A stretch of DNA of 24,924 nt from UHGV virus genome UHGV-0876952; one strand, written 5' to 3'. Position numbers and translations under genes: made by a program. Below the pieces are notes generated by a model. It made no database searches and was not told where the DNA came from. It was given only the letters and a program-made list of their open reading frames with translations. The first letter of the stretch is position 1. Every line of letters starts with the position of its first letter. This stretch comes from a virus. Shown here piece by piece: positions 2,189 through 22,635 of the stretch.

Positions 2189-2305
2189 GTGTTTCTCCTT
2201 GTTGTGATTTGGCCGATGGCGCTATGCGCGTTGGGCTTTCGTTCATTCGTGGCTCTTTCGAGCTGTTAAATGATAGATCAGTACTTACTTATTATCTATC
2301 AAAAA

Positions 2306-2761
2306 TCAACGGGGAGTAATAAAGCGTTCAGAGCCTAATCGCTCTAATTCAACGATGGCCATCTTTGACGCCTGAACGATCATGTCTCGGCGATGCGAAA
2401 AGGCGGCGACAGCATGTTTGTATATGTCTGCGATGTGCCGTGCTTCATCCAACTTCTGCCGTTTAGACAGATACTGTGGGTTTGTTTTAACCTTAGCGTC
2501 CAGTACAGATTCGTTGAACTTAATGCCGTTCATACTCAAGTTCTTACGCTCTGTGTCGTATAGCTTTGCTTCAACAGCTTCAAGGTTAAGTTTTGCTTCT
2601 GCGACACTTCTTTCTGCATGGGCGAGTTTTGAGCCATATTCCATCAACAGGCGGGGTTGTCTACGCCAGACTTCTTCCAGATTGTCTCGGTCAAACTCGA
2701 GATCAGACATTATTTTCTCGTAAATATCGGCGATCATGCACATTTCCTTATCACTTATCAT
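2306..2761 (-). CDS. hypothetical protein (possible UvsY-like recombination mediator; speculative)
   Basis: 151-aa ORF directly upstream of the gp32-like gene; predicted helical, charged. Internal ATG at 2737 has a better RBS (AAGGAA) than ATG 2761. Function inferred only from size and position. Confidence 0.55.
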   Translation of the reverse strand: MISDKEMCMIADIYEKIMSDLEFDRDNLEEVWRRQPRLLMEYGSKLAHAERSVAEAKLNLEAVEAKLYDTERKNLSMNGIKFNESVLDAKVKTNPQYLSKRQKLDEARHIADIYKHAVAAFSHRRDMIVQASKMAIVELERLGSERFITPR

Positions 2762-2831
2762 TTTGTATTGATTATATCATTGTAATGATGAGGCAATGAG
2801 CTTGAAGATAGGGGGGTGAGGGGATAAGGGA

Positions 2832-2856
2832 AAACATGGCCTTTATGGCCATGTTT
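2832..2856. terminator. perfect 10-bp hairpin (AAACATGGCC-N5-GGCCATGTTT) just after the dnaE stop
   Basis: Perfect inverted repeat read directly; T-rich on both flanks. Possible bidirectional terminator or attenuator between the 151-aa gene and dnaE. Confidence 0.4.
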
Positions 2857-2862
2857 ATTGGA

Positions 2863-20230: not shown

Positions 20231-20235
20231 ATTTT

Positions 20236-21576
20236 TTAGGTAACGTCTAAGATTCGCTCAATGAAGCGCATTTGTTCGAGGTTTTGTTTAACGCGAATGC
20301 TGATCCCTCCCTGCTGGTTACGTGAACCGGCAAAGTAGAGACGAGCCTCTCCTTTCGCTTCTTCTTCTTCGGTTTTGTTGATCGTTATTACCAGGTCAGC
20401 AATACGTACTTTTTCGATGTTGTCGGCAGCGTGCATCATTGTGGCAACTTCTGACGCGCCACCTTCACGGTTTGTCTGCGATGCCGTGATCCCAGCAACG
20501 TTATGCTTGTCATAAAGAGCACGTAAATCGGTGTAGATACTACGAATGTTGGCGCGATCATCACGAAGGTCATAACTGGCACGCATCAAATCTGCGTAGT
20601 CGACAACAACCATGTCAGGTACCATGCCGTTGGCTTTCATGCTGTTAAGCATACGGTCCAGATCTGCCGGTGACATACTTCCTGACGGACGCTCAACCAC
20701 CCACAAACTACCAATCCCCTTCGTGGCTCCCAACTCTGCCAACTTACGATGAACCTCATCGCGCCGTTCCACCAGCTTGGACATTTCTGTCTCCGACAAT
20801 CTTGCATCAAAACGGTCGGATAAAATGGTGGTGTGAACCTCCAGCGAGAGATACAGAACATTGTAGCCAGCAAGCGTTGCGTTTATGGAAAACTCACCCA
20901 TTGCGGTCGATTTACCGGATTTAGCGAACCCCATGAAGAGCACCATTTCGCGCTTTGCCCAGCCTTTTTGGTACAGCAACCTATCGAGAAGAGGGAGTCC
21001 AGTTGTAATACTGTTTGGTACATACTCCTCTGAAGCCTCATATTCACGCGCTTTCAATCGCTCACTTGCGGAGGTGTAGTAGTCATAGATTCCGGTCGCT
21101 TCGTTCGATCCAATCTGCTGAACCTTGGCCATGATTGCCATCGCCCCCTGAAAGTCGCCTTTCTCTTTCAGTTCAGCAGCCTTAATCAGAGCATCATCAA
21201 ACGCTACACTTTTTGCGAAGGTTGATACCTGGTCAACCATGTACGAGGTATCGGACAATTTTTCTGCAAGAATGCGCTTAAACGCAGCAACAACATCGGC
21301 GAATAGTTCCTCACGGATAGTCTTATCGCGTTTCGCACGCTTAAGCATATCCAGAATTGCAGATGAAGAGGGCGCGCTCTTGTACATACGGTAATAGCCC
21401 GAAACCATATTAACCAATATGGCATTGGCCGCATTGGCAAACTGGCTAGGCACAACCAGATCTCCCGCACGAGTAAGAAACTCGTGATCACGACAAAAAT
21501 ATGCCGTCAGTCTGTTCTGGAAATCTTCATCAAACTCTTCGGACAGCCCGCGTCCTGTATGGCAAAGTTCGGTCAT
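20236..21576 (-). CDS. replicative DNA helicase (DnaB / RecA-fold family)
   Basis: 446-aa ORF; Walker A GFAKSGKST, Walker B-like MVVVDYADLM, helicase motif ASQTNREG. Confidence 0.85.
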   Translation of the reverse strand: MTELCHTGRGLSEEFDEDFQNRLTAYFCRDHEFLTRAGDLVVPSQFANAANAILVNMVSGYYRMYKSAPSSSAILDMLKRAKRDKTIREELFADVVAAFKRILAEKLSDTSYMVDQVSTFAKSVAFDDALIKAAELKEKGDFQGAMAIMAKVQQIGSNEATGIYDYYTSASERLKAREYEASEEYVPNSITTGLPLLDRLLYQKGWAKREMVLFMGFAKSGKSTAMGEFSINATLAGYNVLYLSLEVHTTILSDRFDARLSETEMSKLVERRDEVHRKLAELGATKGIGSLWVVERPSGSMSPADLDRMLNSMKANGMVPDMVVVDYADLMRASYDLRDDRANIRSIYTDLRALYDKHNVAGITASQTNREGGASEVATMMHAADNIEKVRIADLVITINKTEEEEAKGEARLYFAGSRNQQGGISIRVKQNLEQMRFIERILDVT

Positions 21577-21620
21577 GTGCTTTTCCTTTGTTTTTTAAAC
21601 AAATTGTTTTCTAGTATTAG

Positions 21621-22361
21621 TTAATTAGATAGGGGATCAATAAACCGCCGTGCTTCTTCCAGTTCTTCTGGAAAGTGGGCGGAAATAAGGCGCTCTGGAA
21701 CGATTTCCATTAGCCAGATAGCGGAGAAAATTGCGCGTATGCGCTTGCTGCGAGGGATGGTGCGCAAACGCTCCAGAATCCACTCAAAATAGCTTTCCTG
21801 AATCGGGTTGAACTGCATGTCTCCCATATGCTTAAAGCTAACCAGAGAGTCATCCAGACGGGTTGTTGCGCGTCTGGCTAATTTCTCTTCAAATATCTCA
21901 ATCAGTTCTGGCTGCCATAAATGCTGTGGGCGCGGCAGCTTGTCCCACAGCCGTCGTGCAGCTGCGGAAAGAACGGTGGAGATAAAGTAGTCGTATGAGC
22001 AGCAATAGCGGTCAGCAAACTGGCGTGCTTTCCATAGAGACGTTTTATTGGCAGTCGACAACTCCTGATAAGGCAGGCGTTTTAACCCGGTGGTGAACGG
22101 AGCTGTTTCAAAGTGTTCGCGACCGTGCGTCAGCATGATATTTGAGTACTGACGTTTGTATGCCTCCGTAAACAGACAGGTGGCCATAAGAGGATGCATG
22201 TCGCGGTAATCAAACCACTTCGTCTCGAAGAGTTCAGCCTCATCTTTACAGCGCGACAAACCAATGTTTTCAGCGACCCACTTGTCCATAACAGCGGTAT
22301 TCCACTCTGTCATGAAGTCGTACTGGTCGTTGTCGATGGTATCGAAAAAGATTTGGCTCAT
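21621..22361 (-). CDS. hypothetical protein
   Basis: Track ORF 21621..22370 (GTG start); ATG 22361 has a GGGTGA RBS-like sequence upstream. No recognisable motif. Confidence 0.6.
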   Translation of the reverse strand: MSQIFFDTIDNDQYDFMTEWNTAVMDKWVAENIGLSRCKDEAELFETKWFDYRDMHPLMATCLFTEAYKRQYSNIMLTHGREHFETAPFTTGLKRLPYQELSTANKTSLWKARQFADRYCCSYDYFISTVLSAAARRLWDKLPRPQHLWQPELIEIFEEKLARRATTRLDDSLVSFKHMGDMQFNPIQESYFEWILERLRTIPRSKRIRAIFSAIWLMEIVPERLISAHFPEELEEARRFIDPLSN

Positions 22362-22635
22362 GTGGCTCACCCGGTAGGTAGTTACTTACTTATCACAATG
22401 AGCGGATGATAGCGACTGGTGGCAGTTTTTGGAAGTGAAAACGGAAGGGAGTTGTTCTGGTGGTGTCTTTTAAAAGACCTGCTTCCGTATATATTTAATA
22501 AGTTACTTATTATTTATATACAGAAACAGGCTCCTAATGGATACCAAGAACAACATAATTTGACTCCAACCCCAGATGCTATGTCATTGACAGATTTATC
22601 AAGGGAGATCATGTTAGAATCAGTGTTTTAGCCTC

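What the first reader, a model, noticed from the sequence alone, without database searches (positions are those of the whole stretch)
2272..22394. Recurring palindromic operator-like family GATAAGTA-N6-TACTTATC upstream of several transcription units
A perfect instance lies at 15416-15437 and near-perfect ones at 18938-18959 and 12534-12555. Degenerate or half-site versions lie upstream of the gp32-like gene (2272-2293), the cobS-like gene (7857-7864), the 160-aa gene (18057-18078) and the 249-aa gene (22373-22394). The GGTAAG-CA-CTTACC palindrome by the HTH gene (10506-10519) may be related. This looks like the regulon of one dimeric DNA-binding protein, for which the XRE-family HTH protein at 10551-10937 is the obvious candidate.
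Basis: seen in the sequence. Interest (0 to 1): 0.6.

Follow-up and report, generated by a model that had tools for sequence, protein, structure and literature searches.

The report
Palindromic operator family of a phage-plasmid
A 22-26 bp palindrome recurs about 25 times between the lytic genes of this SSU5-like phage-plasmid and its relatives; it is almost certainly the binding site of one phage-encoded dimeric regulator, which gives a handle on a lysis/lysogeny switch not described in the papers I could search.

Summary
The window is an SSU5-like E. coli phage-plasmid, 98% identical to phage Cyrano/pLF82. GATAAGTA-N6-TACTTATC is part of a 22-26 bp palindrome, (AT)GATAAGTAAGT|ACTTACTTATC(AT). 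The window holds 7 strong or moderate sites against 0.07 expected. Cyrano, SSU5 and a Klebsiella relative each hold 19-24 strong sites against 0.05-0.1 expected. Nearly all lie in short gaps ahead of lytic genes: replication, nucleotide metabolism, structural and lysis. A distant Acinetobacter relative keeps the core GTAAGnnCTTAC with different arms. The two arms do not covary and the RNA folds weakly, so this is a protein site and not a hairpin. The exact core is confined to SSU5-like elements in public collections. It is expressed in lysogens, its recognition helix is nearly invariant, and a conserved core palindrome covers the predicted start site of its own promoter. A conserved MarR-like winged-helix protein encoded just upstream of the terminase genes, outside the window, is a serious rival binder. 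Whether the sites repress or activate cannot be settled by sequence. This is a new member of a known kind, and none of my four literature searches found it described.

The parts
2272..2293 (.). Family site, 84 nt upstream of the gp32-like gene (ATG 2188, - strand) and 13 nt after the UvsY-like stop
   Evidence: Symmetric matrix score 26.5. Orthologous sites in Cyrano 52658 and SSU5 52174.
7843..7864 (.). Weak family site (good left arm and core, poor right arm), 58 nt upstream of the cobS-like ATG (7785)
   Evidence: Perfect half-site TACTTATC at 7857-7864. Below 9 with the symmetric matrix. Orthologue Cyrano 45262 scored 17.5 with the asymmetric matrix.
9174..9195 (.). Candidate site inside the cobT-like coding region; status uncertain
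   Evidence: Score 15.5. Cyrano counterpart 43931 scored 16.0.
10477..10504 (+). Sigma-70-type promoter of the HTH gene (TTTACA-N16-TAATAT)
   Evidence: Promoter scan. Conserved in E. coli, S. Typhi pHCM2, Y. pestis pFra, Cronobacter and Klebsiella.
10506..10519 (.). Core-only palindrome GGTAAGCACTTACC over the predicted start site of the HTH promoter; likely autoregulatory operator
   Evidence: Sequence. Nearly invariant block in five lineages; Klebsiella has the perfect GGTAAGTACTTACC.
10551..10937 (+). XRE-type HTH protein (128 aa), candidate plasmid-state repressor
   Evidence: Weak Pfam HTH_19/HTH_37 hits. AF2 model pLDDT 73.6 with Foldseek hits to C.BclI, C.AhdI, Stl, 434 and P22 c2. Recognition helix nearly invariant. 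Expressed in lysogens.
12534..12555 (.). Family site, 42 nt upstream of the glutaredoxin ATG (12492, - strand) and 12 bp downstream of a strong promoter
   Evidence: 1 mismatch; score 25.8.
12568..12595 (-). Near-consensus sigma-70 promoter TTGATC-N16-TATAAT, which places the 12534-12555 site at about +6 to +27
   Evidence: Best promoter match in the window, 10 of 12.
15416..15437 (.). Perfect family site, 10 nt after the 96-aa gene stop and upstream (- strand) of a 750-nt non-coding stretch and the tRNA cluster
   Evidence: 0 mismatches; score 28.5. Orthologues Cyrano 38251 and SSU5 41772.
18061..18082 (.). Family site abutting the annotated start of the 160-aa gene (ATG 18059)
18938..18959 (.). 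Family site, 41 nt upstream of the 260-aa gene (ATG 18897) and 14 nt after the primase stop
   Evidence: 1 mismatch; score 23.2. In LF82 RNA-seq the downstream gene CYRAN_34 is 1.9-3.4 log2 above the primase gene in all conditions.
22373..22394 (.). Family site about 10 nt upstream of the ATG (22362) of the 246-249-aa gene that heads the helicase-primase operon
   Evidence: 2 mismatches; score 26.6. Orthologue Cyrano 31295 lies after a strong hairpin.

Best explanation
The palindrome is the operator of one element-encoded dimeric regulator that controls essentially all lytic transcription units of this SSU5-like phage-plasmid.

Most likely the XRE protein at 10551-10937, made in the plasmid (lysogenic) state, binds these sites as a dimer or pair of dimers. 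That would keep the replication, nucleotide-metabolism, structural and lysis operons silent. It would limit its own synthesis through the core-only site over its promoter's start point.

Shown:
- The site family exists and has dyad symmetry with independent half-sites.
- The sites lie ahead of lytic genes.
- The family is conserved across genera and confined to this element family.
- The HTH gene is expressed in lysogens while site-preceded genes are silent.
- A core site at the HTH promoter is conserved.

Inferred:
- That the HTH protein is the binder.
- That binding represses rather than activates.
For: Site family is real and non-random:
- Window: 5 hits against 0.07 expected.
- Cyrano 21 intergenic sites against 0.05; SSU5 24 against 0.05; Klebsiella 19 against 0.1; Acinetobacter core 30 against 4.3.
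- Information is confined to the 22-26 bp palindrome.

Protein site, not a hairpin:
- Arms do not covary: 518 Watson-Crick pairs against 521 +/- 8.7 in the null.
- The RNAs fold weakly.

Element-specific:
- The exact core occurs only in SSU5-like contigs of IMG/VR.
- In GTDB species-representative genomes it gives only 13 chance-level singletons. The binder is therefore probably element-encoded.

Sites overlap sigma-70 elements in different registers where such elements are recognisable, as operators do:
- TTGAAA-N17-TATCAT/TATGAT, with the palindrome forming the spacer and the -10, at two orthologous loci.
- TATAAT followed 12 bp later by the site, at grx.
- TAATAT followed 1 bp later by the core, at the HTH promoter.

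HTH protein:
- 96 normalised reads against a median of 9.8 in LF82 lysogens (PMC9928086).
- Genes after sites sit at background, and junctions with sites show a mean step of -0.50 log2 against +0.19 without.
- Its family co-occurs with the backbone in about 960 plasmids.
- The phage isolate SSU5 lacks it but keeps the sites, as a repressor-less derivative would.
- Recognition helix GYKNxNNLSLIKSGK is >=90% conserved across homologues of 54-79% identity.
Against: - No binding data exist.
- Most sites have no recognisable -35 at any fixed distance.
- Sigma-70-like promoters are depleted in the window: 14 against 32.9 +/- 5.6, and 0 against 12.4 +/- 3.1. Many sites may therefore lie at activator-dependent promoters.
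- 22-26 bp of symmetric conservation is long for an XRE dimer. The HTH promoter carries only the 14-bp core.
- A MarR-like winged-helix protein (88 aa; pLDDT 81; Foldseek E 2e-4 to MepR/MarR-type folds) is conserved in the lineages whose full genome I examined, with only a short 35-aa match in Acinetobacter.
- Several sites end only 9-17 nt before a start codon, or sit in 26-bp gaps inside the structural operon. That fits a promoter-operator poorly.
- The correlation between predicted promoter strength and RNA step-up is not significant (rho 0.27-0.34).
Confidence: 0.45

Rival explanations
1. The palindrome is the activator-binding part of phage-specific lytic promoters. It would stand in for a -35 element, as the Lpa box does in phage P1 late promoters. 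The binder would be a conserved lytic-phase regulator, with the MarR-like winged-helix protein encoded just upstream of the terminase genes (CYRAN_123 homologue, outside the window) as the best candidate. The XRE protein would then control only a few early promoters and its own.
For: - Few sites have a -35, and sigma-70-like promoters are depleted.
- A -10-like hexamer (TATCAT; TATAAT/TAATAT in Acinetobacter) lies at fixed spacing from the core GTAAGnnCTTAC.
- The P1 late-promoter boxes AAGTTACTT and ATGTGACTT resemble the core AAGT|ACTT.
- The winged-helix gene sits directly upstream of terS, as lpa does of pacA.
- It is conserved in SSU5, Klebsiella and, over 35 aa, Acinetobacter.
- Its MarR-like fold fits 20-26 bp palindromes with AT-rich flanks.
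- It is at background in LB lysogens, when the regulon is off.
Against: - The -10-like hexamer is mirrored equally on both sides (40/64 against 37/64). It is therefore part of the palindrome and not a directional element.
- Where sigma-70 elements are recognisable, the site overlaps them in different registers. Activator sites normally need fixed spacing.
- Several sites are too close to the start codon for a start point downstream of the site to leave room for the Shine-Dalgarno sequence.
- No Lpa homologue is present.
- The sites are not restricted to late genes.
- It does not explain the conserved core site over the HTH promoter start point without adding a Cro-like second role.
Confidence: 0.3
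2. The sites act mainly as protein roadblocks or insulators. A tightly bound regulator at almost every boundary between lytic gene blocks would stop read-through from the constitutive plasmid-maintenance and toxin-antitoxin promoters. No promoter would be needed at each site.
For: - Sites occur in tiny gaps without promoter-like sequence and directly after stop codons.
- In Cyrano, two sites are followed by intrinsic terminators and two others lie next to terminator-like hairpins.
- In lysogens RNA falls across site-bearing junctions: mean -0.50 against +0.19 log2.
Against: - The drop is marginal (about P 0.04, one-sided). It is partly explained by adjacent terminators and by values near the detection floor.
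- No strong site lies in any of the gaps between convergent genes. That favours a link to gene starts.
Confidence: 0.1
3. The palindromes act as RNA or DNA hairpins, for example terminators, processing sites or translational operators.
For: - They are perfect or near-perfect inverted repeats in transcribed intergenic gaps, some next to ribosome-binding sites.
- Relatives encode an FljA-like (PF03614) protein. By recollection, not checked here, Salmonella FljA acts post-transcriptionally on fliC mRNA.
Against: - No arm covariation: A-C and G-T mismatches are equally frequent, and at pair 5/18 the counts are AT 15, GC 15, AC 14, GT 12.
- Three of six window sites fold no better than shuffles, and the best reaches only -8.3 kcal/mol.
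- There is no U-tract.
- The FljA-like gene is absent from the Acinetobacter lineage, which keeps the motif.
Confidence: 0.03
4. A host protein binds the sites. The arms recall the Fur box GATAAT...ATTATC, and the core GTAAGTACTTAC recalls the SlmA site GTGAGTACTCAC. Both resemblances are from memory.
For: - Sequence resemblance only.
- The core is conserved between elements of Enterobacteriaceae and Acinetobacter despite about 37% protein identity.
Against: - The exact consensus was not found in E. coli or other enterobacterial species-representative genomes; only 13 singletons appeared in unrelated MAGs.
- The arm spacing differs from a Fur box.
- The two positions that differ from the SlmA site are symmetric and fixed.
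- The arms and the central dinucleotide change together with the element lineage, as expected for an element-encoded partner.
Confidence: 0.04

Closest known systems
Phage P1 C1 repressor and its scattered operators (by recollection at least 17; only some were seen in the part of the P1 record fetched)
   Same: - A phage-plasmid in which one repressor has many operators dispersed over a ~100-kb genome.
- Each operator sits at a lytic promoter, and some sit at the repressor's own gene (P1 annotation).
   Different: - By recollection, the P1 operator is an asymmetric 17-mer. The sites here form a 22-26 bp palindrome.
- No C1 homologue is present.
- Here the sites also precede structural and lysis genes, which in P1 depend on Lpa.
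Phage P1 late promoters (Lpa box plus -10)
   Same: - A short inverted repeat built on AAGT/ACTT (P1: AAGTTACTT, ATGTGACTT) next to a -10-like hexamer.
- No -35 element.
- Many copies ahead of lytic operons.
- A small regulator gene directly upstream of the terminase genes.
   Different: - No Lpa homologue is present.
- The palindrome is 22-26 bp, not 9 bp.
- The -10-like hexamer is mirrored on both sides.
- The sites also precede replication and nucleotide-metabolism genes.
IncP (RK2) KorA/KorB global regulons (from general knowledge)
   Same: Palindromic operators of 12-13 bp repeated at many promoters of one plasmid, coordinating replication, maintenance and transfer.
   Different: - The proteins are unrelated as far as tested.
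- The ParB-like proteins of this element were not examined as binders.
- The site sequence is different.
XRE-family phage and controller repressors (434, P22 c2, Stl, C.AhdI/C.BclI)
   Same: - The predicted fold of the 10551-10937 protein matches their five-helix HTH domain (TM about 0.7-0.8 on the target).
- It has a 14-bp palindrome at its own promoter.
   Different: - Sequence similarity is below Pfam cut-offs.
- Foldseek E-values are only 0.01-0.1.
- The C-terminal ~50 residues have no match.

Membership tests
Multi-operator regulon of an element-encoded dimeric regulator | Many copies of one site, far above chance | tested here: met
   Window 5 against 0.07. Cyrano 21 against 0.05 with an order-3 Markov null. 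SSU5, Klebsiella and Acinetobacter likewise.
Multi-operator regulon of an element-encoded dimeric regulator | Dyad symmetry with half-sites matching the consensus independently | tested here: met
   Symmetric information profile. No arm covariation, P = 0.66.
Multi-operator regulon of an element-encoded dimeric regulator | Sites lie ahead of transcription units and overlap core promoter elements | tested here: inconclusive
   21 of 23 sites are intergenic and none lies in a convergent gap. Clear overlap with sigma-70 elements is seen only at about 4 loci plus the grx and HTH promoters. No start-site data are available.
Multi-operator regulon of an element-encoded dimeric regulator | Regulator encoded by the element, present when the regulon is off, and autoregulated | tested here: inconclusive
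   The HTH gene is expressed 10-fold over background in lysogens. A conserved core site covers its promoter start point. Binding itself cannot be tested here.
P1 C1 repressor/operator system | C1-homologous repressor | tested here: not met
   tblastn and phmmer with P1 C1 gave no hit in the window, Cyrano, Klebsiella or Acinetobacter genomes.
P1 C1 repressor/operator system | Asymmetric 17-bp operator | tested here: not met
   The sites here are palindromic. The P1 consensus is from recollection; operator features were seen in the P1 record.
P1 Lpa-dependent late promoters | Lpa homologue | tested here: not met
   Best tblastn E-values 0.29-0.44; best phmmer full-sequence E 0.024 at only 7.6 bits. 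No credible hit.
P1 Lpa-dependent late promoters | Inverted repeat at a fixed distance upstream of a directional -10 hexamer | tested here: inconclusive
   A TANNNT hexamer occurs at fixed spacing in 40/64 sites, but its mirror image occurs in 37/64.
P1 Lpa-dependent late promoters | Restricted to late (morphogenesis, lysis) operons | tested here: not met
   Sites also precede helicase/primase, ligase-region, gp32, Nrd, ThyX and Dam genes.
XRE-family HTH regulator (protein 10551-10937) | Five-helix HTH_3-type domain | tested here: inconclusive
   Pfam HTH_19 at 18.9 bits against a cut-off of 30.2. AF2/Foldseek top hits are XRE proteins, but with E 0.01-0.1.
RNA hairpin / intrinsic terminator | Compensatory arm changes, stable fold, U-tract | tested here: not met
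   No T-run follows the sites.
Host Fur box or SlmA-binding site | Match to the host factor's site geometry and presence of similar sites on host chromosomes | tested here: not met
   Spacing and two core positions differ (by recollection of those consensus sequences). The exact consensus is absent from enterobacterial representative genomes. Binding was not tested.

The most novel reading that the evidence does not exclude
One palindrome, conserved in its core from Acinetobacter to Enterobacteriaceae, is the single control element of the whole lytic programme. It would serve early, replication, structural and lysis genes alike in a very common family of phage-plasmids. It would be read by two element-encoded proteins that compete for it. 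The XRE repressor, through the 14-bp core, would hold the genome silent in the plasmid state. A minimal MarR-like winged-helix protein, through the full 22-26 bp, would substitute for the missing -35 elements and switch everything on. That would be a one-motif, two-reader genetic switch with no temporal promoter classes.
Probability: 0.15. Interest if true: 0.7.

Novelty: new member of a known kind. Interest (0 to 1): 0.5.

Why it matters
SSU5-like phage-plasmids (the pSLy3, pKpn, pHCM2, pMT1/pFra and Acinetobacter groups) are very common. About 900-960 PLSDB plasmids carry the backbone helicase and the HTH gene. The group includes S. Typhi pHCM2 and Y. pestis pFra, and members are reported to carry antibiotic resistance genes (PMC9600943).

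I found no paper describing how they choose between plasmid maintenance and lytic growth. None of my four literature searches returned a paper on regulation in this group, including a search for the motif strings themselves; a 2024 review lists no regulator for the group.

A defined operator family with two named candidate binders makes the switch directly testable by EMSA, ChIP-seq, immunity tests and reporter fusions. It also gives a sequence signature for recognising these elements and their transcription-unit boundaries.

Tried and rejected
- RNA/DNA hairpin: rejected. No arm covariation and weak folding.
- Directional promoter with its own -10: the -10-like hexamer is equally frequent in mirror image. 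A -35-like TTG at 17 bp occurs at only 2 loci.
- P1 Lpa and P1 C1 homology: none.
- Phage-encoded sigma factor: the Acinetobacter relative encodes one, but it has no homologue in the enteric elements.
- Absence of the HTH gene from phage SSU5 first looked like evidence against the HTH protein. It was withdrawn once about 960 plasmid-state relatives were found to carry the gene, which makes SSU5 look like a repressor-less isolate.
- FljA-like protein (PF03614) as an RNA-binding reader: it is absent from the Acinetobacter lineage.
- The small regulator at 15883-16098 and the Cra protein: not conserved in all motif-bearing lineages.
- LF82 lysogen RNA-seq as a test for promoter activity at sites: no excess of step-ups. 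The correlation with predicted promoter strength is not significant.
- Rfam: only tRNAs.
- Sequence search of the PDB with both candidate binders: nothing.
- Literature searches for the motif strings and for SSU5 regulation: nothing relevant.
- Host-factor idea (Fur, SlmA): judged unlikely, but binding was not tested.

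
Full report
**What the window is**

The window is 98-99% identical to Escherichia phage CMS-2020a and to phage Cyrano (pLF82 of E. coli LF82). It is about 80% identical to Salmonella phage SSU5 over the replication genes. It is the replication and recombination arm of an SSU5-like phage-plasmid, and most genes are on the - strand. Genes identified:
- 5'-3' exonuclease, gp32-like SSB and a UvsY-like gene
- PolIII alpha, and cobS/cobT-like genes
- an XRE-type HTH gene (+ strand) convergent with an integrase gene
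- glutaredoxin and four tRNAs
- ligase, primase and DnaB-like helicase

**Checking the observation**

In the complete Cyrano genome the same pattern gives 14 hits against 0.7 expected.

An unbiased k-mer comparison of intergenic and coding DNA puts TAAGTA, ATAAGTA and ATAAGTAA at the top.

Aligning the strong sites shows that all information lies in a 22-bp perfect palindrome, GATAAGTAAGT|ACTTACTTATC. There are weaker AT flanks and no further conserved element at any fixed distance.

With a symmetric weight matrix the window has these sites:

| Site | Note |
|---|---|
| 2272-2293 | strong |
| 12534-12555 | strong |
| 15416-15437 | perfect match |
| 18938-18959 | strong |
| 22373-22394 | strong |
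| 9174-9195 | candidate inside coding DNA |
| 7843-7864 | weak |

Nine matrix positions score above 14 against 0.065 in shuffles. They are 7 distinct sites, because two sites also score in a register shifted by 4 bp.

In Cyrano 21 of 23 sites lie in the 15.8 kb of intergenic DNA. An order-3 Markov model trained on that same DNA expects 0.05.

The motif carries stop codons in two of three frames on each strand. That partly explains its absence from genes, but not its abundance between them.

**Where the sites are**

In Cyrano the strong sites precede these genes:
- Structural and lysis: portal, the gene before the major capsid gene, the Ig-like head protein, the tail protein, tail protein L, the tail fibre, holin.
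- Replication and recombination: the helicase-primase operon, the 260-aa and 160-aa genes, the tRNA region, cobS, gp32, SbcD.
- Nucleotide metabolism and modification: NrdA, ThyX, Dam.
- Others: a membrane-protein pair, several small-gene blocks and the ParB-like operon.

The regulon is therefore genome-wide and covers replication, nucleotide metabolism, morphogenesis and lysis.

The opposite-strand maintenance and cargo genes that are expressed in lysogens have no site of their own. These are the toxin-antitoxin pairs, CYRAN_40, 43 and 99, and the HTH gene. The exception is the UvsW-hyp117 operon, which shares the divergent region that holds site 105106. No strong site lies in a gap between convergent genes.

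**Conservation**

| Genome | Sites found | Expected |
|---|---|---|
| SSU5 | 24 (score >16) | 0.05 |
| Klebsiella phage-plasmid CP101896 | 19 | 0.1 |
| Acinetobacter plasmid NZ_CP087333 (core, <=1 mismatch) | 30 | 4.3 |

- SSU5 sites lie at positions orthologous to those in Cyrano.
- A more distant Klebsiella lineage (helicase 69% identical) keeps the arms with a looser centre.
- The Acinetobacter plasmid (helicase 37% identical) has about 29 sites of the form tATTA-GTAAGCGCTTAC-TAATa. The core GTAAGnnCTTAC is kept, while the central dinucleotide and the arms differ.
- The exact enteric core occurs in IMG/VR only on SSU5-like contigs.
- In GTDB species-representative genomes it gives only 13 singletons in unrelated MAGs, roughly what chance predicts.
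- The reader of the motif is therefore most likely element-encoded.

**Protein site or hairpin**

Across 61 distinct sites the two arms form 518 Watson-Crick pairs, against 521 +/- 8.7 when right arms are shuffled among sites (P = 0.66).

At the variable pair 5/18 the four combinations AT, GC, AC and GT occur 15, 15, 14 and 12 times.

Three of six window sites fold no better than shuffled sequence.

This is the signature of a symmetric protein-binding site whose halves each match RRTARGTAAGT. It is not the signature of a selected hairpin.

**Promoter context**

Sigma-70-type promoter matches are depleted in the window: 14 against 32.9 +/- 5.6, and 0 against 12.4 +/- 3.1.

The palindrome's ends read as -10-like hexamers. 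TANNNT occurs at positions 19-24 in 40 of 64 sites, but the mirror image occurs in 37 of 64. The hexamer is therefore part of the dyad and not a directional element.

A -35-like TTG exactly 17 bp upstream occurs at only two orthologous loci, as TTGAAA-N17-TATCAT/TATGAT. Elsewhere, recognisable promoters overlap the site in other registers:
- TTGATC-N16-TATAAT followed 12 bp later by the site, at grx.
- TTTACA-N17-TAGTAT with the -10 inside the site, before CYRAN_60.
- TTGAAT-N18-TATACT, before the tail gene.

Several sites end only 9-17 nt before a start codon that has its own Shine-Dalgarno sequence. One sits in the 26-bp gap between terminase and portal.

Variable register and crowding against ribosome-binding sites fit an operator better than an activator site. 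The general lack of -35 elements points the other way.

**Expression data**

The LF82 RNA-seq table of PMC9928086 shows the HTH gene at 96 normalised reads against a median of 9.8. Nearly all site-preceded genes are at background.

Junctions with a site show a mean change of -0.50 log2, against +0.19 for junctions without one. The sites therefore show no promoter activity in lysogens and behave as boundaries.

Step-ups in the macrophage condition occur at the four sites with good predicted sigma-70 promoters: hyp4, tail, CYRAN_56 and CYRAN_60. Overall the correlation is not significant.

**Candidate readers**

*The XRE protein (10551-10937)*
- Its homologues are found almost only on ~100-116 kb SSU5-like contigs.
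- They occur in 961 PLSDB plasmids, against 926 for the helicase. The genus spread is similar apart from Yersinia, where the HTH gene is present without a matching helicase count.
- Phage SSU5 lacks the integrase-HTH-glutaredoxin module but keeps the sites.
- Its recognition helix GYKNxNNLSLIKSGKIPLP is the most conserved part of the protein.
- The AF2 model (pLDDT 73.6) resembles C.BclI, C.AhdI, Stl, 434 and P22 c2, though with weak E-values.
- Upstream of the gene, TTTACA-N16-TAATAT-C-GGTAAGCACTTACC is the best-conserved block in E. coli, pHCM2, pFra, Cronobacter and Klebsiella. The palindrome equals the family core and covers the predicted start site.

*The 88-aa protein encoded just upstream of terS (CYRAN_123 homologue, outside the window)*
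- It is conserved in SSU5 (89%) and Klebsiella (84%). In Acinetobacter only 35 residues around the recognition helix match.
- It is predicted with pLDDT 81 as a minimal MarR/PadR-like winged helix: Foldseek E 2e-4 to 1e-3, TM 0.70-0.76. Such dimers typically cover 20-26 bp palindromes with AT-rich flanks.
- It is at background in LB lysogens. If it reads the motif, it does so in the lytic phase.

*Candidates set aside*
- The 71-aa regulator at 15883-16098, Cra and the FljA-like protein are missing from at least one motif-bearing lineage.

**Conclusion**

The motif is the recognition site of an element-encoded dimeric regulator that marks nearly every lytic transcription unit.

I put about 0.45 on repression by the XRE protein in the plasmid state. 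I put about 0.3 on an Lpa-like activator role with the winged-helix protein as reader, and about 0.1 on a mainly roadblock function. Hairpin and host-factor readings share the small remainder.

By kind this resembles the P1 C1 multi-operator regulon, or P1 Lpa promoters. It is not a member of either family, since it has no C1 or Lpa homologue and a different site architecture. None of my four literature searches found a description of it.

Noticed in passing
window 10008-10022, 21596-21610, 24831-24845: A second palindromic motif, AAACAAATTGTTTT (6 matches on the two strands at 3 loci, against 0.74 expected). In Cyrano it lies about 24-35 nt upstream of most of the start codons it precedes, including helicase, cobT-like, SbcD and several small genes. 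It may be a separate regulatory or translational element.
   Followed up: partly
window 22476-22531: A strong 56-nt hairpin (RNA dG -31.7 kcal/mol, z -8) followed by TCTTTT on the - strand. Its apex AATAAGT-T-ACTTATT contains AAGTTACTT, identical to the -22 box of the P1 late promoter LPhot. Similar CTGCTTCTGTATATA... hairpins occur three times in Cyrano.
   Followed up: partly
window 1-24924: Sigma-70 consensus promoter matches are strongly depleted compared with shuffles: 14 against 32.9 +/- 5.6 in 1-20000, and 0 against 12.4 +/- 3.1 in 17000-24924.
   Followed up: no
window 7881-9989: The cobT-like gene, a single 702-aa ORF in Cyrano, is split here. Residues 329-493 are read in a different frame (tblastn frames -2/-1/-2). 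This means two compensating frameshifts, a pseudogene or sequencing errors.
   Followed up: partly
window 12600-14000: A low-GC stretch (0.31-0.38 against about 0.46 elsewhere) carries a 325-aa + strand ORF (12666-13643) with no Pfam hit. It is absent from Cyrano at this position and is probably acquired cargo.
   Followed up: no
window 10088-10300 (- strand): A 70-aa gene is transcribed divergently from the HTH gene, in a cro-like position at the head of the cobT-cobS-polymerase block. In LF82 RNA-seq its Cyrano orthologue rises from log2 4.3 (LB) to 10.8 in macrophages. A conserved TACTACTACCTATT half-site-like block lies in the shared upstream region.
   Followed up: no
window 14670-15415: About 750 nt between the perfect site and tRNA-Asn has no convincing ORF and no Rfam match. 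What is transcribed from here is unknown.
   Followed up: no
SSU5 genome (L006-L008) compared with window 10088-12569: Phage SSU5 lacks the whole integrase, HTH, glutaredoxin and 70-aa gene module. About 960 plasmid-state relatives (pHCM2, pFra, and Klebsiella, Enterobacter and Acinetobacter plasmids) carry the HTH-integrase pair. SSU5 may be a repressor-less derivative.
   Followed up: partly
L052:35201-35866 (Acinetobacter plasmid NZ_CP087333): The Acinetobacter relative encodes a sigma-70-family sigma factor between the cobS-like gene and dnaE. It has no homologue in the enteric elements.
   Followed up: partly
Cyrano 100780-101301 (L004:780-1301): The gene annotated 'transcriptional regulator' is an FljA-like repressor of phase-1 flagellin (PF03614, E 1e-80). 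It may act on host flagellin rather than on the phage.
   Followed up: no
Cyrano 60199-62336 (L003): At least 10 copies of the iteron-like word (CT)ACAGTGGATA flank the RepA gene on both sides. This is presumably the plasmid origin.
   Followed up: no
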